Source of the DNA: Escherichia phage phiP4
Strand: one strand, 5' to 3'
Sequence record: PP993145.1
DNA length: 64,000 nt
Below the pieces are notes generated by a model. That model did no database searches. It worked only from the letters and a program-made list of their open reading frames with translations, and was not told the DNA's origin. This document shows, piece after piece, positions 18,050 to 47,349 of this stretch; the stretch's first letter is position 1, and every line of letters begins with the position of its first letter. The translations under genes and the position numbers were made by a program.

Positions 18050-18397
18050 TTAGTCATAGCACCACCATAACCCACGTTTACGCATGTCATGATCGCGATT
18101 ATAATCATAATTTTCTGGATCTTTCATCACGCGGTGGAGTTCTTGACGATTCCCTTGACGAACCATTTTATTAGAATGCCACTTAACATTCTTACTAATA
18201 GAATTCCAGTTATAACCATCCTTTTTCTCATTACGAATGGTTGCTTCCTTCATTTCTTTTTTGATGTCGTCCCAGGATTTGGCATAAATAACACGAATCC
18301 AGTAGCCATTTTCTTTGAGGAAAGAATATTCTTGAGAGAATTGTTCTTTAGACTTCCACCACTGATCACCAGATTGTCTACGATAAGTACGGCTCAT
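18050..18397 (-). CDS. hypothetical protein (115 aa)
   Basis: ORF track. Confidence 0.5.
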   Translation of the reverse strand: MSRTYRRQSGDQWWKSKEQFSQEYSFLKENGYWIRVIYAKSWDDIKKEMKEATIRNEKKDGYNWNSISKNVKWHSNKMVRQGNRQELHRVMKDPENYDYNRDHDMRKRGLWWCYD

Positions 18398-18518
18398 ATT
18401 ACCTCCATTAAGTCTTTTAAATTAACCTAATGTGGATGAATTTTATTATACATATATTATGTACCTTTATACAGAAAAACCCCAGACTACTTATTCAATA
18501 GCTGGGGTTTGTTATTAA

Positions 18519-18824
18519 TTACAGATCGGGGCGTTCATCTTCGAACGCTACGAAGCCATCAAATTCATCATTTGAAATACCACCAGTATAGGTGATGTCC
18601 GCAATCATCGCTTCCATTTTCCTGATCTCCGAGGTTTTCATACCTGCTTTACTATTCTTATAATATTTGCGAGGGTTCCCACACATCCAACAAGAACAGA
18701 TGCAAGGAGTAGTAGTGATAATACCTAACCGCTTAGGGCTTTCTTCATGTGGAAAGACTGTCCAATACTTCTTACGGTTGTTCTTCACACGTTGCCGGTG
18801 ATGGCGTCTTAATGCTCGATCCAC
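18519..18824 (-). CDS. Cys-rich hypothetical protein (101 aa)
   Basis: ORF track. Confidence 0.5.
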   Translation of the reverse strand: MDRALRRHHRQRVKNNRKKYWTVFPHEESPKRLGIITTTPCICSCWMCGNPRKYYKNSKAGMKTSEIRKMEAMIADITYTGGISNDEFDGFVAFEDERPDL

Positions 18825-18905: not shown

Positions 18906-19274
18906 TTACATCGCCTGAGTAAATGTACGACTAATAACGTCGTTCTGTTGTTCACGAGTCAGTGCATTAAATCGAACAGCGTAGCCAGAGACACGGATGG
19001 TCAACTGAGGATATTTTTCAGGATGTTTCTGCGCATCCAAAAGCTGATCACGGCTTAACACATTGACATTTAGGTGCTGACCACCTTCGATTTGAGGGAC
19101 GACTTCCACCTTAACTTCACGGAAGGATTCAGGATCGAATTGCGGTGTGATACCTTCTAGATCTTCAACTAGAACTTTCTGTTTAAGTTCACCGTTGTCG
19201 GAGTATAGCTGAATAATCTGATTTTCATGAACAAGGTTAATTACGCCAGATTTAAGATTTTGATATGCTTTCAT
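18906..19274 (-). CDS. GrcA/YfiD-like autonomous glycyl radical cofactor protein (122 aa)
   Basis: C-terminal half closely matches E. coli GrcA as recalled, including the glycyl radical motif RVSGYAV. Confidence 0.75.
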
Positions 19275-19316
19275 TAGATCTCCCCGATGTTAGAATTTGG
19301 CTCAGCTTTTTATTCT

Positions 19317-19511
19317 TTATACTTTTCCATAGTATACGGAAACTGTCTTACCAGTTTGGTTCATGACATATGCTACTTCATCTTCTTTTAAAAAGATGGC
19401 TTGGTCTACTCCAACTATAGCCAATCTTTTATTTCTAGGATTAAAGCTTACACTTTTGCCTGTATGAATCTGTTCCCCATTCTTGGCTGACATTATTTTA
19501 ATTGTTAACAT
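19317..19511 (-). CDS. hypothetical protein (64 aa)
   Basis: ORF track. Confidence 0.4.
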   Translation of the reverse strand: MLTIKIMSAKNGEQIHTGKSVSFNPRNKRLAIVGVDQAIFLKEDEVAYVMNQTGKTVSVYYGKV

Positions 19512-19548: not shown

Positions 19549-19624
19549 TGGTAGTTAGTAGTGGATTTGAACCACTGTAATCGCTCCGTATGAAGGAGGT
19601 GCATAACCGCTCTGCCAACTAACT
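19549..19624 (-). tRNA. tRNA-Met (anticodon CAT)
   Basis: Hand fold: 7-bp acceptor, T-arm, anticodon loop TTCATAC, encoded CCA. Confidence 0.65.
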
Positions 19625-19720
19625 ATTATGTTTTACTAGACTAAGTAAGTATTCTTTATACTCTTTAGTCCAATTAGCTTTTTTAAACTTTCCTGGACGC
19701 ATAGTCTTAATTCCTAAATT

Positions 19721-19797
19721 TGGTACTCCGGGAGGGATTTAAACCCCCGATCTCTCGGTTATCAGCCGAGTGCTTTAGATCGCTAAGCTACCGAAGT
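19721..19797 (-). tRNA. tRNA-Ile (anticodon GAT)
   Basis: Hand fold: acceptor with one G-U, anticodon loop CTGATAA, encoded CCA. Confidence 0.65.
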
Positions 19798-19798
19798 A

Positions 19799-20026
19799 TT
19801 AACATTTTACAGCAGAACGTTTGCCATTTCTAGGCGCACCTGGAAGTCGTGCACGTTCTGCCATTATTCGCTTAATCTTTGAGATATTTTCTAGTGTTTG
19901 TTTTTCAGGCTTAATACCTGAAACACTACACCACTGACTACCATCCCATGCGGTAATGATCATAACACCATTACTCATGATCTTTTCTGTGAAAGTAATC
20001 CTCATTATAGCAACTCGTCTAAGCAA
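19799..20026 (-). CDS. hypothetical protein (75 aa)
   Basis: ORF track. Confidence 0.4.
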   Translation of the reverse strand: MLRRVAIMRITFTEKIMSNGVMIITAWDGSQWCSVSGIKPEKQTLENISKIKRIMAERARLPGAPRNGKRSAVKC

Positions 20027-20298
20027 GAGGTATATTTAAGTTTACCATCTTTATCTACTTTGATTTCGACTTCCGCTCGTGGTACTTGACGAACTACACC
20101 ATGAATCATCTTATAGCGAATGCCTTTAGCTGGTTCATGCTCTTTTGGAAATACTTGCTTAACCGTTACTACCTTGAAACCCTCACGCGGTGTTAACACT
20201 ACTACTTGATCACCTTTTTTGATCTTCCAAGAGCTAGGAAATTCATAGGTATAGCGTTGACCACCAGTTTGGAACACAACAGAAAGATAACGTTTCAT
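20005..20298 (-). CDS. hypothetical protein (97 aa)
   Basis: ORF track; promoter 20329..20357 upstream. Confidence 0.5.
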   Translation of the reverse strand: MKRYLSVVFQTGGQRYTYEFPSSWKIKKGDQVVVLTPREGFKVVTVKQVFPKEHEPAKGIRYKMIHGVVRQVPRAEVEIKVDKDGKLKYTSCLDELL

Positions 20299-20328
20299 TT
20301 GGTTTCCCTCTCATTAATTTATATAAAT

Positions 20329-20357
20329 ATTATAACAAGAAATAAGAGAGAAAGCAA
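20329..20357 (-). promoter_or_regulatory. sigma70-type early promoter (TTGCTT-N17-TATAAT)
   Basis: Hexamers and spacer read directly. Confidence 0.6.
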
Positions 20358-20365
20358 ATGAATTT

Positions 20366-20533
20366 TTAATAGAGTTTAGTCACTTCATAAACTATACTAC
20401 GAGATTCTTTATTACGTTCTATTAAATTAGCGTATGCTTTTTCAGCTTCGTTTTTAGTATTAAAGTCTATAACGTGGGAGGTATTAGCTCTGTTTGATTG
20501 ACTATACCAGATAACTACTAGGAGTTTAAACAT
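20366..20533 (-). CDS. hypothetical small protein (track ORF 20366..20560 trimmed to an internal ATG)
   Basis: Track start would overlap the tRNA at 20548..20634. Confidence 0.35.
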   Translation of the reverse strand: MFKLLVVIWYSQSNRANTSHVIDFNTKNEAEKAYANLIERNKESRSIVYEVTKLY

Positions 20534-20547
20534 ACTAGTCCTTAAAT

Positions 20548-20634
20548 TGGTGCTGGGCACAGGATTCGAACCTGCAGTGGGATTACTCCTCCTGATTACA
20601 AATCAGGTGCATTCAACCATTCTGCCAACCCAGC
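20548..20634 (-). tRNA. tRNA with long variable arm; anticodon loop TTTGTAA, formally anticodon TGT (Thr)
   Basis: Hand fold: 7-bp acceptor, CCA, 3-bp D-stem, 15-nt variable arm; identity ambiguous. Confidence 0.5.
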
Positions 20635-20642
20635 AGAACCCG

Positions 20643-20807
20643 TTATTTCAACGGGATTTCTTTTTCAATAACAGGAGACTTATCAGTCATAACTGTCATT
20701 GCCATTTGTTGTAGAAATTCAAAGGTGAAGGCTACACGTTCTTCACCAATCTCTACTTCTACACGTTTCTTTTGTTTATCGATCTTGACTTTTAGGTTAT
20801 CAGCCAT
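20643..20807 (-). CDS. small hypothetical protein (about 54 aa, below track threshold)
   Basis: Hand-translated ORF between two tRNAs, overlapping the stop of 20800..21021. Confidence 0.35.
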   Translation of the reverse strand: MADNLKVKIDKQKKRVEVEIGEERVAFTFEFLQQMAMTVMTDKSPVIEKEIPLK

Positions 20808-21021
20808 CTTCGGGTTCTCGTTGCTGTGCTACTTCTAGCCAGTCTGGTAGAAGAAACTTTGTACGAAATTCTTCGTAAGTTTCTTTGGGATAAAAGCTAA
20901 AACCTCCTTTCTCATCATTCAGGATAACAGAGCCGTCCGTTTGTTCGTATGCTCGGTATGTTTCTCCAATAACAATAACTCGTTTATCGGTACTTTTATT
21001 ACGAAACTCAAAAACGTGCAT
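20800..21021 (-). CDS. hypothetical protein (73 aa)
   Basis: ORF track. Confidence 0.45.
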   Translation of the reverse strand: MHVFEFRNKSTDKRVIVIGETYRAYEQTDGSVILNDEKGGFSFYPKETYEEFRTKFLLPDWLEVAQQREPEDG

Positions 21022-21037
21022 AACGTTTCCTTAAAGT

Positions 21038-21113
21038 TGGAGCGGCTAGAGGGAATCGAACCCTACTCAGCGAGGCTTGGAAGGCCTGCGACACAACCCG
21101 TGTGCTTAACCGC
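21038..21113 (-). tRNA. tRNA-Gly (anticodon TCC)
   Basis: Hand fold: acceptor GCGGTTA/TAGCCGC, anticodon loop CTTCCAA, CCA. Confidence 0.6.
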
Positions 21114-21121
21114 TTATTATT

Positions 21122-21197
21122 TGGCTGGAGAAGGAGGAATCGAACCTACCATTAACGGAGTCAAAGGCCGTTGTGCTAACCGTTACACTACTCTCCA
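21122..21197 (-). tRNA. tRNA-Gln (anticodon TTG)
   Basis: Hand fold: anticodon loop CTTTGAC, CCA. Confidence 0.6.
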
Positions 21198-21203
21198 ATT
21201 GTT

Positions 21204-21279
21204 TGGCTGGGATGCCACGGATCGAACGTGGAACCTTCGGAGTCAGAGGCCGACGATCTGCCAATTGATCTACATCCCA
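21204..21279 (-). tRNA. tRNA-Gln (anticodon CTG)
   Basis: Hand fold: paralogous to previous tRNA, anticodon loop CTCTGAC, CCA. Confidence 0.6.
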
Positions 21280-21288
21280 AGAATGCTA

Positions 21289-21525
21289 TTAGCTAGATGC
21301 TGTTTCTACTGGCTGAGAAACAGCAGGCTGTTCTAACGTATCTGGTGCTGATACAGAGAAAAGAGCTTGTAATGCTGCAATATCACGCTCGTAAGTATCA
21401 ATACGAGTAGTAAGAGTATCTACCATCTGTTTATGGTAGGATAAGTTATTCTGAGATTCATCTCGAAGAGTTTGCAGTTCTGCAAGACGTGTTAACATAA
21501 TTTCACTAATTAAAGCATTACTCAT
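21289..21525 (-). CDS. hypothetical protein (78 aa)
   Basis: ORF track. Confidence 0.5.
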   Translation of the reverse strand: MSNALISEIMLTRLAELQTLRDESQNNLSYHKQMVDTLTTRIDTYERDIAALQALFSVSAPDTLEQPAVSQPVETASS

Positions 21526-21715
21526 TTGTTTCTCCTAAGTTTTCCTGTTCTTCTAAACGTTTGCCTTCATGATCTACTCGAATAACTCCGCATCCTTCGC
21601 AAATCACAACTGCACCATAACCTTCTTTGACCTCAGCTTCTGTAATCAAACCAGAAAGATCACCAGTATCTCTGCCCCACATATCAATGGAGCATTGTTT
21701 GCAGAAATCAGCCAT
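21518..21715 (-). CDS. hypothetical Cys-containing protein (65 aa)
   Basis: ORF track. Confidence 0.5.
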   Translation of the reverse strand: MADFCKQCSIDMWGRDTGDLSGLITEAEVKEGYGAVVICEGCGVIRVDHEGKRLEEQENLGETNE

Positions 21716-21740
21716 ATTTTATTTCCTATTTAAGTTAATT

Positions 21741-21817
21741 TGGGGTGGCTAGTGGAATTCGAATCCACATAGGCCTGATTCACAATCAGGATCATTAACC
21801 AATTATGATATAGCCAC
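21741..21817 (-). tRNA. tRNA-His (anticodon GTG)
   Basis: Hand fold: perfect acceptor GTGGCTA/TAGCCAC, anticodon loop TTGTGAA, CCA. Confidence 0.7.
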
Positions 21818-22186
21818 AATTGAAAACTCGCAGGGTTAGCGAAACCTTCCTCAATTAGCATGTTCTAGAATACTAATCAAGTTATCTCCTATTGCACGCA
21901 GCTCAAGACGAGTACGAATTTTCAATTGTGGCGGCTCTCAGAAACTCTTCTACTCTAGCTTTAGCAGCTTACTCCCGAACGCATGTCGGGGAAGTCTTAC
22001 CAAGAGCATCAAATAGCACCGTTACACTTTGAGCCATAGATGTATCAAGAAGCAGAAGGATTTGAACCTTCACGAGATAGACCAGTTATCTCAGCCGCTT
22101 TATGAGGTATGTTGCAGGGAGTGGATGTTCCCTATAAACCTTTTAGGCAGCCCCGTCTACCGATTCCGGCATACTTCAAGAATTTT

Positions 22187-22360
22187 TTATAAACCAGCAG
22201 AAGCCTCATTTAAAGCATCAACAATAGCTTCACGTTGGGTCATTCCATACCCGGTGGAATCTAGGTGTGGCAAATAAGCCATCCATCCCTTATCTGTTTC
22301 ATGAAGACATGCTTTAAATTTTTTACCATCCTTCATTGTTACAGTAACTGTTTTGCTCAT
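22187..22360 (-). CDS. small protein (57 aa) with HicB-like antitoxin fold signature
   Basis: Hand-translated MSKTVTVTMKDGKKFKACLHETDKGWMAYLPHLDSTGYGMTQREAIVDALNEASAGL; AAGGAA-type RBS. Confidence 0.4.
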   Translation of the reverse strand: MSKTVTVTMKDGKKFKACLHETDKGWMAYLPHLDSTGYGMTQREAIVDALNEASAGL

Positions 22361-22380
22361 AAGATTTCCTTATAGTTAAT

Positions 22381-22470
22381 TGGCAGAAGATAATGGAGTC
22401 GAACCATCACCGTATCGCTACAGCGGGCTGGTTTTCAAGACCAGTTACGTACCACTACGTCCTATCTTCT
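22381..22470 (-). tRNA. tRNA-Ser (anticodon TGA)
   Basis: Hand fold: class II, long variable arm, anticodon loop CTTGAAA, CCA. Confidence 0.65.
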
Positions 22471-22483
22471 AGTATTTATTATA

Positions 22484-22831
22484 CTAATAGTCACTCGTAC
22501 TAGTGAAGTTTTCTACTTTTCCACAGATTTTACAAGTCCTACGATGATAGTAGGTAATTTTTACTTTAGACCAGCCATCGTGATCATTACCTAGGTTTTC
22601 TGTTACTCCCCAAGTATGAGAACACTCATTTTCAATTTGCTTAGTAAGAGCGTTATAGCGAGTATAAAACTCCTCCTGAGCAATAGCAAATTCTTTCTGT
22701 AGTTTATCACGAGCAATAATAGCACGTTCCAGATATGTTAAATCAGGCATTCCAGCTTTTTCAGCAACATCTATAATCTTATCTTCATCTAAAGATGCTA
22801 AAAACTCTAGAGCTTTATCTTTTGTTAGCAT
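22484..22831 (-). CDS. hypothetical protein (115 aa)
   Basis: ORF track. Confidence 0.5.
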   Translation of the reverse strand: MLTKDKALEFLASLDEDKIIDVAEKAGMPDLTYLERAIIARDKLQKEFAIAQEEFYTRYNALTKQIENECSHTWGVTENLGNDHDGWSKVKITYYHRRTCKICGKVENFTSTSDY

Positions 22832-22850
22832 TATTATTACCTCAAGTGTT

Positions 22851-22941
22851 TGGCGGAAGAGGAGAGATTTGAACTCTCAAGCCGTTTTACCAGTCAGCCA
22901 CTTTCCAAGCGGTTTTCGTCACCAATTCGATTTGCTCTTCC
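22851..22941 (-). tRNA. tRNA-Ser (anticodon GGA)
   Basis: Hand fold: class II, long variable arm, anticodon loop TTGGAAA, CCA. Confidence 0.6.
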
Positions 22942-22974
22942 AATAATAAGATGATGCCTCTATCACACCAGGCA

Positions 22975-23053
22975 GTTACGCCTCGCTGGGATTCGAACCC
23001 ATTAAAACAGCTCAACCGAGATAGTAGGTTTAATTTACTCTGACCATCAAATT
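22975..23053 (-). pseudogene. tRNA-like remnant: T-arm (GGGTTCGAATCCC) with 3-prime acceptor half but no pairing 5-prime half
   Basis: The 13-mer GGGATTCGAACCC is duplicated 79 nt apart; no complementary acceptor strand found. Confidence 0.3.
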
Positions 23054-23130
23054 TGGTGCGTGACAAGGGATTCGAACCCTCAAAACCCGACTTCTAAGGA
23101 CGGTATGTATGCCAATTCCATCAATCACGC
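23054..23130 (-). tRNA. tRNA with Leu-type anticodon TAG but class I (short variable loop) architecture
   Basis: Hand fold: 7-bp acceptor GCGTGAT/GTCACGC, discriminator A, CCA, anticodon loop CTTAGAA, 5-nt variable loop. Confidence 0.5.
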
Positions 23131-23135
23131 ATATT

Positions 23136-23214
23136 TGGTGGAGAATAACGGAATCGAACCGTTCTGATGTCCTCGGTGCAAGCGAGGTGTCCACTCCATG
23201 CAGACCCATTCCCC
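23136..23214 (-). tRNA. tRNA-Ala (anticodon TGC)
   Basis: Hand fold: acceptor with G3:U70 pair, anticodon loop CTTGCAC, CCA. Confidence 0.65.
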
Positions 23215-23452
23215 AAATTCTTTAGTTTACTAAGGCTATTAGCTCGGCGTAACTACAGCACCTTCGCTTCGAGCGGAAGGAACTGCGTCATCTCGCAAAC
23301 CCAATACACTATTCAGTTGCCGCTGAATCTAGTGGACCAATCTAGAACTTCTCCCGAATCAGGGGGATCGTGCTTTTTGGCAGCCAGTCCTAGGTCGAGC
23401 TAATACCTTAGTGAACTATGATGAGGATTTCTCCTCATCAATTTATATAAAT

Positions 23453-23481
23453 ATTATAACAAGAAATTAAGCATCAAGCAA
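23453..23481 (-). promoter_or_regulatory. sigma70-type early promoter (TTGCTT-N17-TATAAT) upstream of a tRNA sub-cluster
   Basis: Hexamers and spacer read directly. Confidence 0.6.
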
Positions 23482-23500
23482 CTGCGTTTTTTCTTGAAAT

Positions 23501-23579
23501 TGGTAGATCGCCTGGGACTCGAACCCAGAACCTTCCGATTAAAAGTCGGATGCTACTAAACCTATTGAGCTAGCGATCT
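23501..23579 (-). tRNA. tRNA-Lys (anticodon TTT)
   Basis: Hand fold: perfect acceptor AGATCGC/GCGATCT, anticodon loop CTTTTAA, CCA. Confidence 0.7.
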
Positions 23580-23580
23580 A

Positions 23581-23748
23581 TTAGTAACCATTATACACTT
23601 CTTTAATAGAGTGGACTTTTAAGTAAGGGTGATTAGTACTAAACTCTACCATTACTTCATCCCAATTTTTACCATAATGAGCAAGTAAGGATTTTGATGT
23701 ATTCTTACCTAATCGTTTATCACTTACTACTAATCGAAATACTTTCAT
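23581..23748 (-). CDS. small hypothetical protein (about 55 aa, below track threshold)
   Basis: Hand-translated ORF between tRNA-Lys and the next tRNA. Confidence 0.35.
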   Translation of the reverse strand: MKVFRLVVSDKRLGKNTSKSLLAHYGKNWDEVMVEFSTNHPYLKVHSIKEVYNGY

Positions 23749-23768
23749 TTCGAAATCCTCTATTAAAA

Positions 23769-23846
23769 TGGAAGCGGGTGCAGGAATCGAACCTACCTCT
23801 TTCTAGCTTATGAGACTAGCGATCTCTACCAGAGATCTAACCCGCG
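23769..23846 (-). tRNA. tRNA with anticodon CAT (Met, initiator-like or Ile2)
   Basis: Hand fold: anticodon loop CTCATAA; position 1:72 unpaired (C/U), as in initiator tRNAs; CCA. Confidence 0.55.
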
Positions 23847-23852
23847 ATTATT

Positions 23853-23929
23853 TGGTCAGTGCGGCAGGACTCGAACCTGCGACCCGAAGCATCCAAGGCT
23901 CCCACGCTACCAACTGCGCTACGCACTGT
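23853..23929 (-). tRNA. tRNA-Pro (anticodon TGG)
   Basis: Hand fold: perfect acceptor CAGTGCG/CGCACTG, anticodon loop CTTGGAT, CCA. Confidence 0.7.
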
Positions 23930-24138
23930 TAATTTTTGTTAACTCACTTTATAAGATATATTATACAGAGAATTAAGCAGAATAGCAAATGAATTTTTAA
24001 TAAATTTACTTATTGTGTAGGCCACCTAGAGGCTATGAACCCCACGGCTGACAAAGAAGTTTGCGAGACTTCTCTTAAATGCCAGAATAGACCCGCCGAT
24101 CTATCGGAACCTACATAATAAGTAAACTTTATAGTGTC

Positions 24139-24258
24139 ATTCTAGACAGGACTCGAACCTGTTATCACTTGTGCGGACTTACGAGAACCATTCTTTCACT
24201 CGAATCGAACGAGCTTCTGCCCTCGCCAAGCTGGTTTCCCCATCAACCACGCTAGAAT
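24139..24258 (-). other. composite tRNA-like element (120 nt) with two T-arm hairpins and a D-arm-like hairpin
   Basis: Outer 7-bp acceptor-like pairing ATTCTAG/CTAGAAT spans 120 nt; no canonical anticodon arm found by hand. Confidence 0.3.
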
Positions 24259-24380
24259 GTTTGATTGTTTTCAGTGCAAGAGTCCGAGTCTTGGACACGA
24301 CCGCTTCGCAAGTACATAGGCAGCTTATCATGAGTCAGCACTTCCGAATTGCTAGCTCCGTGTTCTGCACTGAAATTTTA

Positions 24381-24728
24381 TTAGTTTAACCGTAAAGTAT
24401 TATCTACTTCACCATTAATTGTTCGGCATTCTTCTGGGATTGCCGGGGTAGCCTTATATTCCCACCACTCAGCACCATCATATTCCCCACGTTCTAACCA
24501 AGTTCCATCGGCAAACCATACATTACCATAAAGTAATTGTCCACCGTATCCAGAATCATATTCAAAGTCTAGGTTATTAAGAAAATCCTCAATATCTTCT
24601 TCTGTATAACCTAAAGGTAATACCCAAACTTTTTTATCCCCATAATACCCGAATTCTATTTTAATACACTTAACTTCAGAATTAGTATTTTTTAAGGCAA
24701 GTAACAACTCTTCTTTAGCATTACGCAT
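24381..24728 (-). CDS. hypothetical protein (115 aa)
   Basis: ORF track. Confidence 0.5.
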   Translation of the reverse strand: MRNAKEELLLALKNTNSEVKCIKIEFGYYGDKKVWVLPLGYTEEDIEDFLNNLDFEYDSGYGGQLLYGNVWFADGTWLERGEYDGAEWWEYKATPAIPEECRTINGEVDNTLRLN

Positions 24729-24753
24729 AATATATTCTCATACTGAATTAATT

Positions 24754-24830
24754 TGGCGCGACCGATGGGATTCGAACCCACATTCTCTCCCGTGACAGGG
24801 GAGTACCATTACCAAGCCAGCCCCGGTCGC
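24754..24830 (-). tRNA. tRNA-Asp (anticodon GTC)
   Basis: Hand fold: perfect acceptor GCGACCG/CGGTCGC, anticodon loop CTGTCAC, CCA. Confidence 0.7.
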
Positions 24831-24839
24831 ATGATCTGT

Positions 24840-25025
24840 TTATTCAGCTTTGAGTTTTTCAATAGCTGCATTAAGTTCTTTAAGAAACTCTTTTCGTACA
24901 TTAAGACGATTGAGACTTACTAGTATATCATGTTTAAGTTCTTCGATGTATTTCTTCTCAACTTCAATATTGTTGATAGTGCTATCACGATGAACTTCTA
25001 ACTGTGCAATTACATTCTTGGACAT
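24840..25025 (-). CDS. hypothetical coiled-coil protein (61 aa)
   Basis: ORF track. Confidence 0.4.
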   Translation of the reverse strand: MSKNVIAQLEVHRDSTINNIEVEKKYIEELKHDILVSLNRLNVRKEFLKELNAAIEKLKAE

Positions 25026-25052
25026 GCTTATTTCCTCAGTTATTAATGAAAA

Positions 25053-25125
25053 TGGTATCTGTGGCTGAATTCGATGTCAGCAATGATAGCTGGTTGGCTA
25101 CCGGTTTACTTAACTCTACACAGAA
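25053..25125 (-). other. non-canonical tRNA-like element (no U33 in candidate anticodon loop, 8-nt T-loop)
   Basis: 6-bp acceptor with encoded CCA; anticodon loop CAACCAG lacks U33. Confidence 0.3.
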
Positions 25126-25127
25126 TT

Positions 25128-25210
25128 TGGCGGGCCGTGTAGGATTCGAACCTACGTTGTCTTTCGACATGGATTAACAGTCCACCGCCAAACCGCTTGG
25201 CTAACGACCC
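25128..25210 (-). tRNA. tRNA with 13-nt variable arm and anticodon GTT (Asn as read; Tyr-like architecture)
   Basis: Hand fold: acceptor GGGTCGT/ACGGCCC, 3-bp D-stem, anticodon loop CTGTTAA, CCA. Confidence 0.5.
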
Positions 25211-25362
25211 TAAATTTATATTGCTGACTAGGATTTTCACCTAGACGGAGTTAGCACCGTAGCGTGTAGCGGCATACCTCTCCAAACCGTGCCTCATCTT
25301 TCAATTACGGAGACAGTGTTCCTACGCGTGCCTGAATTGATTTAACAATTCTTTCAGCAAAT

Positions 25363-25438
25363 TGGACGACCGCATGAGATTTGAACTCACATAAAAAGGA
25401 TTTGCAATCCTTCGCCTAAGCCATTCAGCCAACGGTCG
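25363..25438 (-). tRNA. tRNA-Cys (anticodon GCA)
   Basis: Hand fold: perfect anticodon stem AAGGA/TCCTT, loop TTGCAAA, CCA. Confidence 0.7.
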
Positions 25439-25505
25439 ATTTATTATCTTTCATAACGTGCAGCTACATGGTCGGAACCACAACACTTAAATCTAACTAA
25501 TCGTT

Positions 25506-25748
25506 TCATTTAACACGCTCCGGTAGATCTTCTAGTTTATATTCAGTAGCCACATTAGCAGCATCTAAAAGTAATCCCATGTGTTTAAGGATTTTAGTGA
25601 TAGATTCGCCTTTGGCTTCTTCTACGAAAGAACGTAGATGAACAAAGTCAATTCCACCGTCCATACCAGAGAAAATATTTAGTAAGCGAAGCATTACCAG
25701 CTTACGTTCATTCAATTCTTGTTCTGTCATGTTGCTTCTCCAGTTCAA
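25506..25748 (-). CDS. hypothetical protein (80 aa)
   Basis: ORF track; promoter 25760..25788 upstream. Confidence 0.5.
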   Translation of the reverse strand: MNWRSNMTEQELNERKLVMLRLLNIFSGMDGGIDFVHLRSFVEEAKGESITKILKHMGLLLDAANVATEYKLEDLPERVK

Positions 25749-25759
25749 TTTATATAATT

Positions 25760-25788
25760 ATTATACAGAACTTTTGGAAACTAAGCAA
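25760..25788 (-). promoter_or_regulatory. sigma70-type early promoter (TTGCTT-N17-TATAAT)
   Basis: Hexamers and spacer read directly. Confidence 0.6.
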
Positions 25789-26068
25789 CTACATTTTTTA
25801 AGAATTTGATGCCTTTCTTTTTCTTCTTATATTTCCACGTTAAGGGATTCTGTCGATTATGAACGCTTGAGATCTTCGTCTCGTCAAAGTTCTTCAATAT
25901 CATGTAATCACAAGATAATTGTTCTAGTGGAATGTGATCACCGTCAAAAGCGTATACATAAGGCTGTTGACTAGCACGATAATGATAGACTTTGTTAATT
26001 CTACGTTTCAGCGACTTATCCGCGCAGTAAATAAAGAAGTTTTCAGGATGCATCAGCAGCTCCTTCAA
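25781..26068 (-). CDS. hypothetical protein (95 aa)
   Basis: ORF track. Confidence 0.45.
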   Translation of the reverse strand: MKELLMHPENFFIYCADKSLKRRINKVYHYRASQQPYVYAFDGDHIPLEQLSCDYMILKNFDETKISSVHNRQNPLTWKYKKKKKGIKFLKNVVA

Positions 26069-26070
26069 TT

Positions 26071-26145
26071 TGGTGCACCCTGTTCGTATCGAACGAACCT
26101 CTCAAGCTCTTCAGGCAAGCGCTAATCCATCTCAGCTAAAGGTGC
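26071..26145 (-). tRNA. tRNA-Phe (anticodon GAA), weakly paired anticodon stem
   Basis: Hand fold: good acceptor and perfect T-arm; anticodon stem has two U-U mismatches; CCA. Confidence 0.45.
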
Positions 26146-26152
26146 AAATTTT

Positions 26153-26197
26153 TGGCAAACCTACTAGGACTCGAACCTAGACCGTACGGTTTTGGAG
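26153..26197 (-). other. minihelix-like element: T-arm plus acceptor-like stem with encoded CCA, no D or anticodon arm
   Basis: T-arm CTAGG-TTCGAGT-CCTAG followed by TAGGTTT-G-CCA; only a 5-bp partner 45 nt upstream. Confidence 0.25.
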
Positions 26198-26237
26198 ACC
26201 GACATGCTGTCCAGTAACACTCTAGGAATGCAGGAAT

Positions 26238-26314
26238 TGGCGTCCTGTGAGGGGATCGAACCCGCAAATCCTACCTTGAAAGGGTAGTGACTTTACCAGT
26301 TTGTCTAACAGGAC
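26238..26314 (-). tRNA. tRNA-Glu (anticodon TTC)
   Basis: Hand fold: perfect acceptor GTCCTGT/ACAGGAC, anticodon loop CTTTCAA, CCA. Confidence 0.65.
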
Positions 26315-26320
26315 TTAAAT

Positions 26321-26408
26321 TGGTGGGGAAAGATGGAGTCGAACCACCCGAGTCGCAATGACAACTGATTTACAGTCAGCTCTGCTACCACTTACAGAAT
26401 ATTTCCCC
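26321..26408 (-). tRNA. tRNA-Tyr (anticodon GTA)
   Basis: Hand fold: class II, acceptor GGGGAAA/TTTCCCC, anticodon loop CTGTAAA, CCA. Confidence 0.7.
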
Positions 26409-26487
26409 ATATTTAGAAGTATTCAAAAAATTCTCATTTAAACACTTTTAAATATGTTTCCAAATTAGATAAATATTATATCAAGTT

Positions 26488-26526
26488 TTATAGCACTGAG
26501 CAAGTCAAATTTTAAAGAACTTGCTC
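26488..26526 (-). terminator. 13-bp perfect hairpin (GCACTGAGCAAGT ... ACTTGCTCAGTGC), terminator-like, downstream of 26540..26815
   Basis: Perfect inverted repeat followed by A/U-rich sequence; overlaps a promoter-like -35. Confidence 0.4.
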
Positions 26527-26539
26527 AGTGCTGTATTAG

Positions 26540-26815
26540 TTAGTCGAACTTAGGAGTGACAGTTAAGGAGAATGGAAGTTCGAAAACTTCTTCACCCTCA
26601 TCACTAACAGTAATTACACGACCTTTAAGTTCAGACATTGAAATATCAATATCAGCTTTTGCATCTGGAGCCATGCCAGCTTCAACACATTTAGCTTTAA
26701 TTTCCGGTAGAAGTTCTACATCGTAGAAATAAAGCCATTCAATCTCACCTTCCCAGCCTTCCCAGGATTTACAGATTGCACTTTCAATACCAGCTGCTAT
26801 AACACGATTTTGCAT
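26540..26815 (-). CDS. hypothetical acidic protein (91 aa)
   Basis: ORF track. Confidence 0.5.
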   Translation of the reverse strand: MQNRVIAAGIESAICKSWEGWEGEIEWLYFYDVELLPEIKAKCVEAGMAPDAKADIDISMSELKGRVITVSDEGEEVFELPFSLTVTPKFD

Positions 26816-26905
26816 TCGTTAACTCCTCCATCAATTTATATAACTATTATACCAGAAATTTAAAGCAAAAGGCAAGTACATTTTTAAAAATTCTGTTTGG
26901 AAGAG

Positions 26906-27112
26906 CTAAACTCCAGACTCTTCAGCCAAGTCTAGACTAATAAGAGATATAGCCATAATTGCTGCTCCATGTTCTTTTTCTCCAGTTTCTTTAGCTAGAG
27001 TTATAATATCAAGAAATTGCTTATGAAAATCTGCAACCTCTTGAGTTAAACCCGCCTCAGCAATCATACCTTTAAGCATGAAACGTTGTGCGGTAATTTC
27101 AGGATTAGCCAT
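26906..27112 (-). CDS. hypothetical protein (68 aa)
   Basis: ORF track. Confidence 0.45.
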   Translation of the reverse strand: MANPEITAQRFMLKGMIAEAGLTQEVADFHKQFLDIITLAKETGEKEHGAAIMAISLISLDLAEESGV

Positions 27113-27272
27113 GTTGTTTCTCCAGTTTCATCTTTAATAGTCTACAAATAAAATCAATGTCTTCATCCGTGCCTAGATCTCTATCTTCAAGAGTTGCCTT
27201 GAAGTTTTTAGTCAATTCCATGAGAATAACTTCTCTAGAACGACGTGTTGGCGGAGGTGGATGTCTATACAT
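27105..27272 (-). CDS. small hypothetical protein (about 55 aa, below track threshold)
   Basis: Hand-translated ORF with 8-nt overlap onto the start of 26906..27112. Confidence 0.35.
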   Translation of the reverse strand: MYRHPPPPTRRSREVILMELTKNFKATLEDRDLGTDEDIDFICRLLKMKLEKQHG

Positions 27273-27287
27273 CTTATTTCCTTAATT

Positions 27288-27364
27288 TGGTAGGGGTGGT
27301 GGGATTCGAACCCACAAAACCTGAATTTTAAGTCCAGTACCTATGCCAATTCGATTACACCCCC
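27288..27364 (-). tRNA. tRNA with Leu-type anticodon TAA but class I (short variable loop) architecture
   Basis: Hand fold: acceptor GGGGGTG/CACCCCT with G1-U72, discriminator A, CCA, anticodon loop CTTAAAA. Confidence 0.5.
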
Positions 27365-27465
27365 ATGTAATCAGTTTATTAGTTGATACATATTATAGCC
27401 TAGTGAAAATCCTACTACTAATCCCACAAACCAACCAATATAATAATCTTTTAGTTTCACAGGTA

Positions 27466-27651
27466 TTATCCTCGTTCAATATCTAGGGAAATACCGCAGT
27501 TAGGATTAATACCTGTACCATTGCAATTTGCGCAAACCCAGATATTGCAAAAAGTATCTCCTGCTTCTGCATCAGAACTTTCACCAATTCCCCTACACTC
27601 AGGGCAGGCACATTCCTCTAGCTCTTGCTTGAGTTCTTGAAACTTGGACAT
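27466..27651 (-). CDS. Cys-rich zinc-ribbon-like small protein (61 aa)
   Basis: Paired CxxC motifs (CPEC ... CANC). Confidence 0.45.
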   Translation of the reverse strand: MSKFQELKQELEECACPECRGIGESSDAEAGDTFCNIWVCANCNGTGINPNCGISLDIERG

Positions 27652-27659
27652 ATAGTCTC

Positions 27660-27848
27660 CTAGTTAATTACTTTTGAGGCTTCTAAAGCATTGACGTAGT
27701 AAACATCTTCTACATTATACATATAGTCTACTACTTTGTCCATAGCATGGAGTTCAGATGTAGCCTTTACTAGTCTGTACCCTTGCTTAAACTCGTCCGA
27801 ATGTTCTCTATCTTGTGCAAATTTAACAGAAACTATGAATAATTCCAT
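27660..27848 (-). CDS. hypothetical protein (62 aa)
   Basis: ORF track. Confidence 0.4.
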   Translation of the reverse strand: MELFIVSVKFAQDREHSDEFKQGYRLVKATSELHAMDKVVDYMYNVEDVYYVNALEASKVIN

Positions 27849-27867
27849 TAGTTGTCCTTATTTAATT

Positions 27868-27945
27868 TGGTGGCTCCCCGAGGATTCGAACCTACGTACC
27901 TTCCGGTTATGAGCCGGGTGCTCATACCATATGAGCTTGAGAACC
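27868..27945 (-). tRNA. tRNA with anticodon CAT (third CAT tRNA; Met or Ile2), imperfect T-stem
   Basis: Hand fold: acceptor GGTTCTC/GGGAGCC, D-arm GCTC/GAGC, anticodon loop CTCATAA, CCA. Confidence 0.5.
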
Positions 27946-27951
27946 AAAATC

Positions 27952-28040
27952 TGGCGGAAGAAGTGGGAATCGAACCCACAAGGCTATATTTCAAGCCGAC
28001 AGATTAGCAATCTGCTGCAATACCGTTATGCTATTCTTCC
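27952..28040 (-). tRNA. tRNA-Ser (anticodon GCT)
   Basis: Hand fold: class II, perfect acceptor GGAAGAA/TTCTTCC, anticodon loop TTGCTAA, CCA. Confidence 0.65.
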
Positions 28041-28061
28041 GAATTTATAAGATATATTATA

Positions 28062-28580: not shown

Positions 28581-28610
28581 ATTTGGTTCCTCTCTCAAAT
28601 TTATAGATAT

Positions 28611-28639
28611 ATTATACAGAGAATTTAGCATTCAAGCAA
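28611..28639 (-). promoter_or_regulatory. sigma70-type early promoter (TTGCTT-N17-TATAAT)
   Basis: Hexamers and spacer read directly. Confidence 0.6.
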
Positions 28640-45474: not shown

Positions 45475-47349
45475 ATGAATCGCAATGAAGAACTAAAGTA
45501 TAAAGAAATGCAGGCGTTAATTAGAAACTGCAAAGAGATTATCGAAGGGTCAGCAGATGAAGAGCTGCTGTTTAATAATGCTAATAAACCCTCAGAACGT
45601 TTCCCTACACAAAGGGATATGCTTGCAGGTGAGTTGAGTAAGTATCTGATTCTAGAAGAAATGCCAATTCAGATTCGAAATGCTCATATGATTGGGGATA
45701 TTCATTTCCATGATGCTGATTATGCTGCATTAGGCATGACTAACTGTTGCCTGGTAGCTCTGGAAGATATGTTAAAGAATGGTATGAAGGTTGGTAATGC
45801 TGAAATTAGCACTCCAAACTCTATCACTACTGCGGCGGCTATCACTGCTCAGATTATCACTCAAGTTAGCTCCCATCAGTATGGTGGTACTTCTGTAGAT
45901 CGCCTTGATGAAGTATTAGCCCCTTATGTTCGTAAATCCTATGACAAAAATCATGCGTTTGCAAAACGTTGGACTAAGGATGAAGCCAAAGCATCTGTAA
46001 TGGCTACGGAGATGACTGAAAAAGAAGTCTATGACGCTTGTCAGGGTTTAGAATATGAAATCAATACCATGTTTAACTCTAATGGTCAGAGTCCATTTAT
46101 TACCTTTGGTTTTGGTCTAGGAACTTCCTGGGAAGCACGTCTAGTACAGAAAGCAATACTGAAAGTACGCATGGATGGTTTAGGTATCAATAAACGTACA
46201 GCTATCTTCCCAAAACTGGTATTTGTACTTCGTGATGGCGTAAATATGAAACCAGGAGATGTTAATTATGACATCAAGAAGTTAGCTATGAAATGTACTG
46301 CTGAACGTATGTATCCAGATTATATCAGCTATGACAAAGTTGTAGAAGTTACTGGAGACTACAAAGTTTCTATGGGCTGCCGTTCATTCCTAGCTGCTAC
46401 AGAAGATGGTGAAACTGCCGGTCGTAATAACTTAGGTGTTGTTTCTGTAAACTTGCCTAGAATTGCTATCGAAGCTGAAGGAAATATTGACCTATTCTTT
46501 GATTTGCTTGAGCTACGTGTGGATACAGCATTAAAAGCGTTGGAGTGGAGAGTTGATCGCTTAAAATATATCCAAGCTAAAGCTGCACCCATCCTCTATA
46601 TGTCAGGAGCTTTTGGGTTACGCTTGGAGCCTGATGAATATGTATTCGATCATTTCTATAACCGTGCTTCTGTATCCCTAGGGTATATTGGTTGCCATGA
46701 AATGCTACAGTTCATGTTTGGCAAAGATGTAGACACAATGTCCGAGACCTGCATCAAGTTTGTTCAGCGTGTATTGCAGTACATGCGAGATAGGGTAGAT
46801 CAGAAGAAGGAAGAAACTAAGTTAGGTTATAGCCTATATGCTACACCATCGGAATCCCTATGCGATCGTTTTTGTCGTCTAGACCGTGAGTATTTCCCGG
46901 AGCATGAAGATATTCTGTCCAAAGGATACTACACTAACTCGCACCACCTTGATGTAGAACGTAAAGTTGCTCCTAACGTCAAATTTGATTATGAATCTAA
47001 CTTTACTCCGATTGCTTCTGGTGGGTGCATTTCCTATGTAGAACTACCAGATATGAAACGATTCCCAGATGCACTGGAATGGGTTATTAATTATGCCGCT
47101 AGTAAAGTTCATTACTTCGGTATCAATACTCCAGTGGATTCTTGTGGTAAATGTGGATTCTTAGGTGAAACAATAGCATCCGAGGATGGATTTAAGTGCC
47201 CTATCTGTGGTAATCATGACCCCGAAACTCTTGAAGTAACTCGTCGAGTTTGTGGGTATCTTGGAAATCCGGGTGCTCGTCCCTTTAACCCCGGCAAACA
47301 GCACGAGGTGATGGGCAGAGTGAAACATCAGGATATTCGAGCTAAATAA
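45475..47349 (+). CDS. nrdD: anaerobic ribonucleoside-triphosphate reductase (class III RNR, 624 aa)
   Basis: C-terminal glycyl radical motif RVCGYLG and Cys-rich zinc site (CGKCG ... CPICG). Confidence 0.8.
   Translation: MNRNEELKYKEMQALIRNCKEIIEGSADEELLFNNANKPSERFPTQRDMLAGELSKYLILEEMPIQIRNAHMIGDIHFHDADYAALGMTNCCLVALEDMLKNGMKVGNAEISTPNSITTAAAITAQIITQVSSHQYGGTSVDRLDEVLAPYVRKSYDKNHAFAKRWTKDEAKASVMATEMTEKEVYDACQGLEYEINTMFNSNGQSPFITFGFGLGTSWEARLVQKAILKVRMDGLGINKRTAIFPKLVFVLRDGVNMKPGDVNYDIKKLAMKCTAERMYPDYISYDKVVEVTGDYKVSMGCRSFLAATEDGETAGRNNLGVVSVNLPRIAIEAEGNIDLFFDLLELRVDTALKALEWRVDRLKYIQAKAAPILYMSGAFGLRLEPDEYVFDHFYNRASVSLGYIGCHEMLQFMFGKDVDTMSETCIKFVQRVLQYMRDRVDQKKEETKLGYSLYATPSESLCDRFCRLDREYFPEHEDILSKGYYTNSHHLDVERKVAPNVKFDYESNFTPIASGGCISYVELPDMKRFPDALEWVINYAASKVHYFGINTPVDSCGKCGFLGETIASEDGFKCPICGNHDPETLEVTRRVCGYLGNPGARPFNPGKQHEVMGRVKHQDIRAK

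What the first reader, a model, noticed from the sequence alone, without database searches (positions are those of the whole stretch)
18906..19274. Phage-encoded GrcA-like glycyl radical spare-part protein
The C-terminal 60 residues are nearly identical to E. coli GrcA as I recall it, including the glycyl radical motif RVSGYAV. GrcA replaces the oxygen-cleaved C-terminus of pyruvate formate-lyase, so a phage copy suggests maintaining host anaerobic metabolism during infection.
Basis: partly seen in the sequence, partly recalled or inferred. Interest (0 to 1): 0.65.

Follow-up and report, generated by a model that had tools for sequence, protein, structure and literature searches.

The report
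T5-like phage GrcA spare-part protein
This is a small phage gene that copies the oxygen-sensitive tail end of the host enzyme pyruvate formate-lyase, so a damaged enzyme can be repaired during infection; a homologous phage T4 protein was shown to do this in 2001, so the finding is correct but ordinary.

Summary
Window 18906-19274 (minus strand) is a 122-aa ORF. Residues 61-122 are a PFL-type glycyl radical domain (Pfam PF01228, E=4e-18) with the motif RVSGYAV (radical glycine = Gly97). This domain aligns without gaps to E. coli PflB 698-759. "Nearly identical to GrcA" overstates it: the last 60 residues are 80% identical to GrcA, 80% to PflB and 85% to TdcE.

The window is a T5-like phage (Tequintavirus), 99.9% identical here to Escherichia phage Lindwurm. 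The gene is the ortholog of T5.056. Homologs occur in about 1,580 deposited phage genomes, including T4 vs.6 (Y06I). Papers read here credit Wagner et al. 2001 with showing that Y06I restores oxygen-cleaved PFL.

The T5-like orthologs are under strong purifying selection (dN/dS 0.07). Neither this window nor the Lindwurm genome, its closest sequenced relative, encodes an activase, so the host PflA must install the radical.

Verdict: interpretation supported, already known, low interest.

One side lead is worth noting. In two other phage lineages the homolog lies within or beside the nrdD-nrdG genes for anaerobic ribonucleotide reductase, and this phage also carries nrdD. That hints that PFL repair serves to supply formate for phage dNTP synthesis.

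The parts
18906..19274 (-). CDS of the GrcA-like protein (122 aa plus stop); ortholog of T5.056 and Lindwurm_ID115
   Evidence: ORF list. The protein is 100% identical to the Lindwurm protein and 95% identical to T5.056.
18909..19094 (-). Glycyl radical domain, residues 61-122, collinear with PflB 698-759 and GrcA 66-127
   Evidence: Pfam PF01228. Gap-free HMMER alignment to PflB and GrcA. The AF2 model of this part matches 6OWR and 2PFL. dN/dS is 0.017.
18975..18995 (-). RVSGYAV motif; Gly97 (codon 18984-18986) corresponds to PflB Gly734 and GrcA Gly102, the radical site
   Evidence: Read directly from the sequence. The columns are invariant in alignments A1 and A3.
19095..19274 (-). Divergent N-terminal half, residues 1-60. 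It corresponds in position to the GrcA region that binds cleaved PFL and aids activation.
   Evidence: Only residues 50-61 align to bacterial GrcA. Residues 31-61 align to phage-type N-termini (hhalign E=4e-5). dN/dS is 0.11. AF2 predicts beta strands with pLDDT about 85.
19280..19283 (-). Ribosome-binding site GGAG
   Evidence: Sequence; annotated as an RBS in Lindwurm.
20329..20357 (-). Probable early promoter of the transcription unit (TTGCTT, 17-nt spacer, TGnTATAAT), homologous to T5 promoter P11
   Evidence: Alignment to the annotated P11 region of T5 is almost invariant across the promoter. The assignment rests on homology only.
19549..19797 (-). tRNA-Met (19549-19624) and tRNA-Ile (19721-19797), upstream in the same inferred transcript
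   Evidence: ARAGORN; the same gene order is found in T5.
18477..18510 (-). Intrinsic terminator hairpin followed by a U run, ending the unit after the next ORF (18519-18824)
   Evidence: Homologous to the annotated terminator of T5. Folds at -19 kcal/mol, z = -4.7.
45475..47349 (+). Context only, not part of the gene: phage nrdD (anaerobic class III ribonucleotide reductase, motif RRVCGYLG), the phage's second glycyl radical protein
   Evidence: ORF; annotation in Lindwurm; tblastn against phages.

Best explanation
[quoted passage not shown] It is a spare part for the host's pyruvate formate-lyase (PflB, possibly also TdcE).

Proposed mechanism:
- Oxygen cleaves active PFL at the Gly734 radical.
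- The phage protein's C-terminal domain (residues 61-122) duplicates the lost beta strand, glycine loop and C-terminal helix, and docks into the damaged enzyme.
- The host activase PflA installs a radical on Gly97 within RVSGYAV.
- The radical passes to PFL Cys419, and pyruvate is again split into acetyl-CoA and formate.

The gene is transcribed early, together with phage tRNAs. T5 degrades host DNA, so the host can no longer induce its own stress-inducible grcA, and a phage copy keeps fermentative energy and formate production running in micro-oxic conditions.

Shown here: homology, domain layout, conservation, purifying selection and the absence of a phage activase. Shown by others for T4 Y06I and E. 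coli YfiD: activation by PFL activase and rescue of cleaved PFL. Inferred: that the T5-like protein does the same, and the physiological rationale.
For: - Glycyl radical domain: PF01228 E=4e-18; GrcA/PflB hits E=1.6e-30 and 6e-27, gap-free against PflB 698-759.
- The [10 protein letters not shown] block is invariant across 41 diverse homologs.
- The AF2 C-terminal domain matches 6OWR and 2PFL.
- Full-length match to phrog_1209 (E=1.2e-47), the family of T4 vs.6/Y06I.
- Y06I and YfiD are the two biochemically validated spare parts (PMC8683613, citing Wagner 2001).
- A GrcA-specific segment, REVxVEVxP, precedes the domain and is absent from PflB and TdcE.
- Purifying selection across 29 distinct T5-like alleles: dN/dS 0.069 overall, 0.017 in the C-terminal half, 0.11 in the N-terminal half.
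- The gene is present at 80% identity or more in 436 phage records and in 1,584 phage records overall.
- There is no PFL body and no PflA or NrdG homolog in the window or in the whole Lindwurm genome, so the protein must act on and be activated by host proteins.
- Host DNA degradation early in T5 infection is stated in the abstract of bioRxiv 10.64898/2026.04.02.716235.
Against: - No biochemical or genetic test exists for any T5-like member. Two literature searches combining formate-lyase with T5 terms found nothing, and in a third no listed paper mentioned formate-lyase.
- The protein scores below the curated NCBIfam GrcA equivalog cut-off (121 against 170 bits), and that model matches only residues 50-122.
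- The N-terminal roughly 50 residues, which in YfiD matter for binding cleaved PFL and for activation, are not detectably similar to bacterial GrcA.
- The benefit during a short lytic cycle has not been demonstrated.
Confidence: 0.8

Rival explanations
1. Same biochemistry, different purpose: the protein belongs to the phage's anaerobic dNTP-supply module. Keeping PFL alive supplies formate, which is the reductant for the phage class III ribonucleotide reductase NrdD. General energy metabolism would then be secondary.
For: - In the jumbo Klebsiella phage K64-1 the homolog lies between nrdD and nrdG.
- The same adjacency occurs in RaK2, Serratia phage BF and Yersinia phage fHe-Yen9-04 (loci L072-L074).
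- In Aeromonas phage AsFcp_4 the order is nrdD-nrdG-vs.6-nrdC-nrdH, with the vs.6 start overlapping the nrdG stop. A 235-kb viral contig (L095) has nrdD-nrdG immediately upstream of the homolog.
- This window also encodes NrdD (45475-47349).
- Most characterised class III RNRs use formate as reductant, and a formate-binding site has been proposed for T4 NrdD (PMC4493059, citing Mulliez 1995).
Against: - In T5-like and T4-like phages the gene is not near nrdD (26 kb away here; no nrdD or nrdG within 6 kb in 28 T5-like and about 25 T4-like loci).
- Genome-wide co-occurrence could not be counted with these tools. NrdD is in 2,924 phage records and the GrcA-like gene in 1,584, so many NrdD phages lack it.
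- No experiment links the two.
Confidence: 0.35
2. The protein is a spare part or radical donor for the phage's own NrdD, another glycyl radical enzyme that oxygen cleaves, rather than for host PFL.
For: Operon linkage with nrdD and nrdG in two phage lineages. The phage carries NrdD.
Against: - The domain is PFL-type throughout: 80-85% identical to PflB/TdcE/GrcA.
- The NrdD of this same phage has a different C-terminus (RRVCGYLG after a CxxC...CxxC zinc-site-like segment).
- NCBIfam and PDB hits are all to the PFL clade and none to NrdD.
- T4 Y06I is reported to complement PFL.
Confidence: 0.04
3. The protein is a decoy. It soaks up host PflA or caps PFL to shut down or redirect host fermentation rather than to repair it.
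For: It carries the PflA recognition loop RVSGYAV but has a divergent N-terminal half, and it is expressed early. No direct evidence.
Against: - The whole domain is nearly frozen (dN/dS 0.017; invariant columns). This includes the C-terminal helix and beta strand that fit into the PFL barrel, which is more than a PflA decoy would need.
- The T4 homolog restores activity rather than inhibiting it.
Confidence: 0.05
4. The gene is a recently captured, functionless fragment of a host pflB, tdcE or grcA gene.
For: The best E. coli DNA match is the 3' end of pflB, at 77-78%. Exchange between phage and host does happen: the last 180 nt of T4 vs.6 are 177/180 identical to E. coli grcA.
Against: - DNA identity to any E. 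coli paralog is only 72-77%, and third codon positions are near saturation at 47-57%.
- Purifying selection is strong in both halves.
- The gene holds a conserved syntenic position in T5 and its relatives.
- It shares a phage-lineage signature, Gln82 ('DAQ'), seen in 33/33 T5-like and 35/44 other phage-type sequences but 0/43 bacterial-type GrcA.
Confidence: 0.02

Closest known systems
Bacteriophage T4 Y06I (gene vs.6), autonomous glycyl radical cofactor
   Same: - A phage-encoded protein of about 120 aa in the same PHROG family (phrog_1209).
- 52.7% identical over the full length.
- Both start MKAYQ and have the same layout: a variable N-terminal half, then REVxVE, then a PFL-type glycyl radical domain.
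- Y06I is reported to be activated by PFL activase and to restore oxygen-cleaved PFL.
   Different: - The C-terminal 60 residues of T4 are 100% identical in protein and 98% in DNA to E. coli grcA, with sharp boundaries, which indicates a gene-conversion tract from the host.
- The T5-like domain is an independent, older lineage: 80% protein and 72% DNA identity to grcA.
- T4 carries its own nrdG activase. The T5-like phage has no activase at all.
- The N-terminal halves show no significant pairwise similarity.
E. coli GrcA (YfiD), TIGR04365 / PDB 6OWR
   Same: - A stand-alone glycyl radical domain with the same radical loop [10 protein letters not shown].
- 80% identical over the last 60 residues.
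- Shares the REVxVEVxP segment before the domain.
- The structural model matches 6OWR.
   Different: - Scores below the equivalog cut-off (121 against 170 bits), and residues 1-49 do not match the model.
- The last 30 residues resemble TdcE/PflB more than GrcA ([18 protein letters not shown]).
- It is phage-borne and expressed early with tRNAs, not stress-regulated from the host chromosome.
C-terminal glycyl radical domain of E. coli PflB and TdcE
   Same: Gap-free alignment to PflB 698-759. 80% identical to PflB and 85% to TdcE over the last 60 residues. The best E. coli DNA hit is the 3' end of pflB.
   Different: The roughly 700-residue catalytic barrel is absent (TIGR01255: 85 bits against a cut-off of 994; no PflB N-terminal homology anywhere in the phage). 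The protein cannot be an enzyme by itself.
GrcA-like genes embedded in nrdD-nrdG operons of jumbo phages (K64-1, RaK2) and Aeromonas Aeh1-like phages
   Same: Same protein family, about 56-70% identical.
   Different: Those copies lie within or right next to the anaerobic RNR genes. Their N-terminal halves align full-length to bacterial GrcA (hhalign E=4.6e-9). Here the gene sits at the edge of the tRNA cluster, 26 kb from nrdD.

Membership tests
Autonomous glycyl radical cofactor GrcA/YfiD (TIGR04365, IPR011140) | Small stand-alone protein (about 120-130 aa) without the PFL catalytic barrel | tested here: met
   122 aa ORF. No PflB-body homology in the window or in the Lindwurm genome.
Autonomous glycyl radical cofactor GrcA/YfiD (TIGR04365, IPR011140) | C-terminal PFL-type glycyl radical domain with RVSGYAV and the radical glycine | tested here: met
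   PF01228 E=4e-18. Gly97 aligns with PflB Gly734 and GrcA Gly102.
Autonomous glycyl radical cofactor GrcA/YfiD (TIGR04365, IPR011140) | Score above the curated equivalog cut-off (170 bits) with a full-length match | tested here: not met
   121.1 bits; only residues 50-122 match.
Autonomous glycyl radical cofactor GrcA/YfiD (TIGR04365, IPR011140) | GrcA-type N-terminal half of about 60 residues (binds cleaved PFL, aids activation) | tested here: inconclusive
   Direct similarity to bacterial GrcA is limited to residues 50-61. Residues 31-61 match phage-type N-termini (E=4e-5), and those in turn match bacterial GrcA N-termini over their full length (E=4.6e-9).
Autonomous glycyl radical cofactor GrcA/YfiD (TIGR04365, IPR011140) | Radical installed by PFL activase; restores activity to oxygen-cleaved PFL | not testable with these tools
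   Reported only for E. coli YfiD and T4 Y06I (PMC8683613).
Phage Y06I/vs.6 family (PHROG phrog_1209) | Full-length profile match | tested here: met
   E=1.2e-47; residues 1-122 against profile positions 1-121 of 121. T4 vs.6 is labelled phrog 1209 in record OZ209057.
Phage Y06I/vs.6 family (PHROG phrog_1209) | Full-length homology to T4 Y06I itself | tested here: met
   tblastn gives 52.7% identity over 100% of the query. However, the N-terminal halves alone give no significant BLASTP alignment.
Formate C-acetyltransferase (PflB/TdcE, TIGR01255) | Catalytic ten-stranded barrel of about 750 aa with the Cys418/Cys419 pair | tested here: not met
   85.5 bits against a cut-off of 994; only the last 62 positions of the profile match. 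Database labels such as 'pyruvate formate-lyase' for this gene are therefore over-annotations.
Class III ribonucleotide reductase NrdD glycyl radical domain | RVCGY-type motif after a zinc-binding Cys cluster | tested here: not met
   The phage's own NrdD has CGKCG...CPICG...RRVCGYLG. The finding has no Cys cluster and has RVSGYAV. No NrdD hit appeared.

The most novel reading that the evidence does not exclude
Phage GrcA-like proteins may be selected mainly as part of an anaerobic or micro-oxic dNTP-supply circuit. By repairing host PFL after the phage has destroyed the host's ability to express grcA, they keep formate flowing to the phage class III ribonucleotide reductase. The homolog's position within or beside the nrdD-nrdG genes in two unrelated phage lineages supports this, as does the presence of nrdD in this T5-like phage. 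This phage carries two glycyl radical proteins but no activase, so it would depend fully on host PflA and NrdG. A more radical variant, in which phage NrdG activates the GrcA-like protein in the operon-linked lineages, is also not excluded.
Probability: 0.3. Interest if true: 0.5.

Novelty: already known. Interest (0 to 1): 0.2.

Why it matters
It matters little as a discovery. Phage-encoded PFL spare parts have been known since the 2001 work on T4 Y06I. This exact protein is already in GenBank, and relatives are annotated as grcA.

It is still a good example of a virulent phage carrying a repair part for a host enzyme. The annotation mess around it ('pyruvate formate-lyase', 'acetyltransferase-related', 'ribonucleotide reductase subunit', 'hypothetical') could be cleaned up.

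The operon link to anaerobic ribonucleotide reductase suggests a testable reason why gut phages keep this gene. It may matter for phage performance in low-oxygen settings such as the intestine, which is relevant to phage therapy and biocontrol with T5-like phages.

Tried and rejected
- Searched for a phage-encoded activase. The only CxxxCxxC motif in a window ORF of at least 60 aa is in the 101-aa downstream ORF (18519-18824). That ORF is too short, has no Pfam hit and falls in phrog_4499 of unknown function. tblastn with two phage NrdG proteins and E. coli PflA found nothing in the window or the whole Lindwurm genome.
- Pairwise BLASTP of the N-terminal halves gave nothing against T4 and only 11 residues against GrcA. 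Profile comparison was needed.
- The consensus promoter/terminator scan missed both the promoter and the terminator of the unit because of a weak -35 element and a long hairpin. Both were recovered by homology to T5 annotation and by folding.
- Three literature searches for work on the T5-like gene found nothing relevant. One search failed on term length. Mulliez 1995 could not be read.
It was rerun on alignment A3.
- Fold search found no structural match for the N-terminal half.
- Genome-wide co-occurrence of the GrcA-like gene with nrdD could not be computed, because the search tool lists at most 60 records.
- The first regex for the signature residue was off by one and was corrected.

Full report
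**Observation.** The coordinates given match an ORF exactly: 18906-19274 on the minus strand, 122 aa plus stop. A GGAG ribosome-binding site precedes it at 19280-19283. The protein ends ...[33 protein letters not shown].
- Pfam finds the glycine radical domain PF01228 (E=4e-18, residues 62-103).
- NCBIfam's top hits are all GrcA-type or PFL-clade glycyl radical models.
- Against solved structures the best hits are E. coli GrcA/YfiD (6OWR, E=1.6e-30) and E. coli PflB (E=6e-27).
- Residues 61-122 align to PflB 698-759 without a gap, so Gly97 falls on the radical glycine Gly734.

The one correction concerns "nearly identical". The last 60 residues are 80% identical to GrcA, 80% to PflB and 85% to TdcE. 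The best E. coli DNA match is the 3' end of pflB at 77-78%.

**What the window is.** The 2.5 kb around the gene is 99.9% identical to Escherichia phage Lindwurm (Demerecviridae, Tequintavirus), and 95-98% identical to many T5-like Escherichia and Salmonella phages.
- The protein is 100% identical to Lindwurm_ID115, annotated 'putative acetyltransferase-related protein'.
- It is 95% identical to T5.056 of the reference T5 genome, which is annotated through InterPro IPR001150.
- Other records call the same gene pyruvate formate-lyase, 2-ketobutyrate formate-lyase, formate-lyase, glycyl radical cofactor or grcA.
- tblastn finds a homolog in 1,584 of 50,697 phage records. Of these, 436 are at 80% identity or more (T5-like). 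Most of the rest are T4-like phages, in which the gene is vs.6.

**Anatomy.**
- *C-terminal half (residues 61-122).* This is the glycyl radical domain.
  - In an alignment of 41 diverse homologs the block [13 protein letters not shown] is invariant, and most of the rest of the domain is invariant too.
  - An AlphaFold2 model (mean pLDDT 78) gives a strand, the glycine loop as a hairpin, and a C-terminal helix.
  - Foldseek matches that part to 6OWR and to PFL structures (2PFL, rmsd 2.6 Å over 50 residues).
- *N-terminal half (residues 1-60).* This half is divergent.
  - The GrcA equivalog model covers only residues 50-122, and the total score (121 bits) is below its 170-bit cut-off.
  - BLASTP of the N-terminal halves finds only the 11-residue segment [11 protein letters not shown] / YREVPVEVKPE shared with GrcA, and nothing shared with T4. 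PflB and TdcE lack that segment, so it marks the GrcA type.
  - Profile comparison links residues 31-61 to the N-termini of other phage homologs (E=4e-5). Those in turn align full-length to bacterial GrcA N-termini (E=4.6e-9).
  - The T5-like N-terminal half is therefore a strongly diverged version of the GrcA N-terminal region.
  - In YfiD that region is disordered in solution but is needed for measurable binding to cleaved PFL and for efficient radical installation (PMC8683613).
- *Whole protein.* It matches PHROG phrog_1209 end to end (E=1.2e-47). T4 vs.6 carries the same PHROG label.

**Selection and history.** I compared 29 distinct T5-like alleles from IMG/VR plus the window.
- dN/dS is 0.069 overall, 0.017 for the domain and 0.11 for the N-terminal half. 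Both halves are maintained by selection.
- Third-codon-position identity to any E. coli paralog is only 47-57%, so this is not a recent capture.
- The domain has Gln82 ('DAQ'). This is present in 33/33 T5-like and 35/44 other phage-type sequences but in 0/43 sequences with a bacterial-type GrcA N-terminus. That sample is the top 120 hits to this query and is biased accordingly.
- T4 differs. The last 180 nt of vs.6 are 177/180 identical to E. coli K-12 grcA. Identity drops to about 50% immediately upstream and to background after the stop. This is a clean gene-conversion tract from the host.

**Expression context.** The transcription unit is inferred by homology to the annotated T5 genome. In order along the minus strand it contains:
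- a P11-like promoter at 20329-20357 (TTGCTT, 17-nt spacer, TGnTATAAT; almost invariant between T5 and the window);
- ORF 20005-20298;
- tRNA-Ile;
- tRNA-Met;
- ORF 19317-19511;
- the GrcA-like gene;
- ORF 18519-18824;
- a terminator hairpin at 18477-18510 (-19 kcal/mol, z = -4.7).

It lies in the T5 early region, at the edge of a cluster of 22 tRNA genes.

**Mechanism.** The established model for this family comes from the papers read here.
- Oxygen cleaves active PFL at the glycyl radical.
- The spare part binds the cleaved enzyme.
- PFL activase (PflA) installs a radical on the spare part's glycine.
- That radical is passed to Cys419 of PFL, restoring pyruvate cleavage to acetyl-CoA and formate.

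Everything the sequence can show agrees with the T5-like protein doing the same. It has the identical radical loop, a gap-free PFL-type domain and the GrcA-specific linker.

The phage has no PFL body and no activase. tblastn with E. coli PflA and two phage NrdG proteins finds nothing in the window or in the complete Lindwurm genome. The only CxxxCxxC motif in a window ORF of at least 60 aa lies in a 101-aa ORF of unknown function. The protein must therefore work on host PFL (or TdcE) and be activated by host PflA.

A likely reason for a phage copy, which is my inference, is as follows. T5 degrades host DNA early in infection (abstract of bioRxiv 10.64898/2026.04.02.716235). The host can then no longer induce its own grcA, which the K-12 record annotates as stress-induced.

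**Rivals.**
- *Decoy for PflA, or inhibitor of PFL.* This is unlikely because the whole domain is frozen, not just the loop, and because T4 Y06I restores activity.
- *Spare part for the phage's own NrdD.* This is unlikely because NrdD has a different C-terminus (zinc-site-like cysteines followed by RRVCGYLG), while the finding is 80-85% identical to PFL-clade domains.
- *Dead host fragment.* This is excluded by the selection and synteny data.

**A lead found on the way.** In Aeromonas phage AsFcp_4 the gene order is nrdA-nrdB-x-nrdD-nrdG-vs.6-nrdC-nrdH, with the vs.6 start overlapping the nrdG stop. In the jumbo Klebsiella phage K64-1 the homolog lies between nrdD and nrdG.
- Among 80 viral loci, four have nrdD and nrdG within 6 kb of the homolog: the RaK2, Serratia BF and Yersinia fHe-Yen9-04 types and a 235-kb contig.
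- None of the T5-like or T4-like loci do.
- This window nevertheless also encodes NrdD (45475-47349).
- Most characterised class III reductases use formate as reductant, and a formate-binding site has been proposed for T4 NrdD (PMC4493059). PFL produces formate.
- The phage spare part may therefore be kept chiefly to secure formate for anaerobic dNTP synthesis.

This is an inference from gene neighbourhood in two lineages. I could not compute genome-wide co-occurrence.

**Comparison and novelty.** The closest known entity is T4 Y06I/vs.6: same PHROG family, 52.7% identity, reported function. The differences are three:
- an independent, non-host-converted radical domain;
- a more diverged N-terminal half;
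- no phage activase.

As a member of the strict NCBIfam GrcA equivalog it fails the score cut-off. As a member of the phage Y06I family it passes. It is not a pyruvate formate-lyase, despite many database labels.

The phenomenon, the family and this exact sequence are all already in the literature or the databases, so I rate it 'already known' with low interest (0.2). The formate-NrdD reading is the most novel option left open. I give it a probability of about 0.3 and moderate interest if true.

Noticed in passing
L002:4001-4363 (T4 vs.6) compared with L004:567-950 (E. coli grcA): The last 180 nt of T4 vs.6 are 177/180 identical to E. coli K-12 grcA. Identity falls to about 50% just upstream and to background after the stop. 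This is a sharp host-to-phage (or phage-to-host) gene-conversion tract covering exactly the glycyl radical domain.
   Followed up: partly
L043:10185-13163 (Klebsiella phage K64-1); L042:2365-5384 (Aeromonas phage AsFcp_4); L072-L074, L095: In jumbo RaK2/K64-1-like phages and Aeromonas Aeh1-like phages the GrcA-like gene sits within or directly beside the nrdD-nrdG genes for anaerobic ribonucleotide reductase. This suggests a functional link, possibly formate supply.
   Followed up: partly
window 45475-47349 (+): The phage encodes a 624-aa class III ribonucleotide reductase NrdD (RRVCGYLG). No NrdG or PflA activase is found in the window or in the whole genome of its closest relative, Lindwurm. 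This NrdD is 100% identical to that of Shigella phage SSP1 and 99.7% to Lindwurm's, so the window appears to be a mosaic among T5-like phages.
   Followed up: partly
window 18519-18824 (-): The ORF immediately downstream in the same transcription unit (101 aa, ortholog of T5.055) has a Cys cluster, CICSCWMCGNPRKY, after a basic N-terminus. It has no Pfam hit and falls in phrog_4499 of unknown function.
   Followed up: partly
proteins P0069, P0086, P0087, P0094, P0098, P0101, P0110: Several database proteins combine a bacterial GrcA N-terminal half with a C-terminal domain identical or nearly identical to PflB's (VMNREMLLDAMENPEKYPQ...TKEQQQDVITRTFTQSM). They could reflect grcA/pflB gene conversion in enterobacteria or assembly chimeras from short contigs.
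   Followed up: no
window 19549-31636 (-): There is a cluster of 22 tRNA genes interspersed with small ORFs. It includes a tRNA-Trp (26153-26229) that is not listed at the corresponding place in the Lindwurm annotation, so the window differs from Lindwurm in this region.
   Followed up: no
window 18050-18397 (-); 48044-48859 (+); 48840-49352 (+): Neighbouring genes of unclear role: a DUF7295 protein (E=3e-53), an ORF whose Lindwurm counterpart is annotated as a Sir2-like protein, and a HAD_SAK_2 domain protein (HAD domain of 'Swiss Army Knife' RNA repair proteins, E=1e-19) just downstream of nrdD.
   Followed up: no
proteins P0033 and P0093: P0033 is a 67-aa N-terminally truncated gene call of the T5-like protein in Citrobacter phage YZU-L1, labelled 'ribonucleotide reductase subunit'. 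P0093 is a GrcA with the segment [10 protein letters not shown] duplicated, probably a sequencing or assembly artefact.
   Followed up: no
L098-L110, L113 (IMG/VR 'viral' contigs): Several IMG/VR contigs recovered by the glycyl radical pattern carry full-length bacterial pflB at 94-100% identity to E. coli. These are host DNA or prophage flanks in the viral collection, not phage spare-part genes.
   Followed up: no
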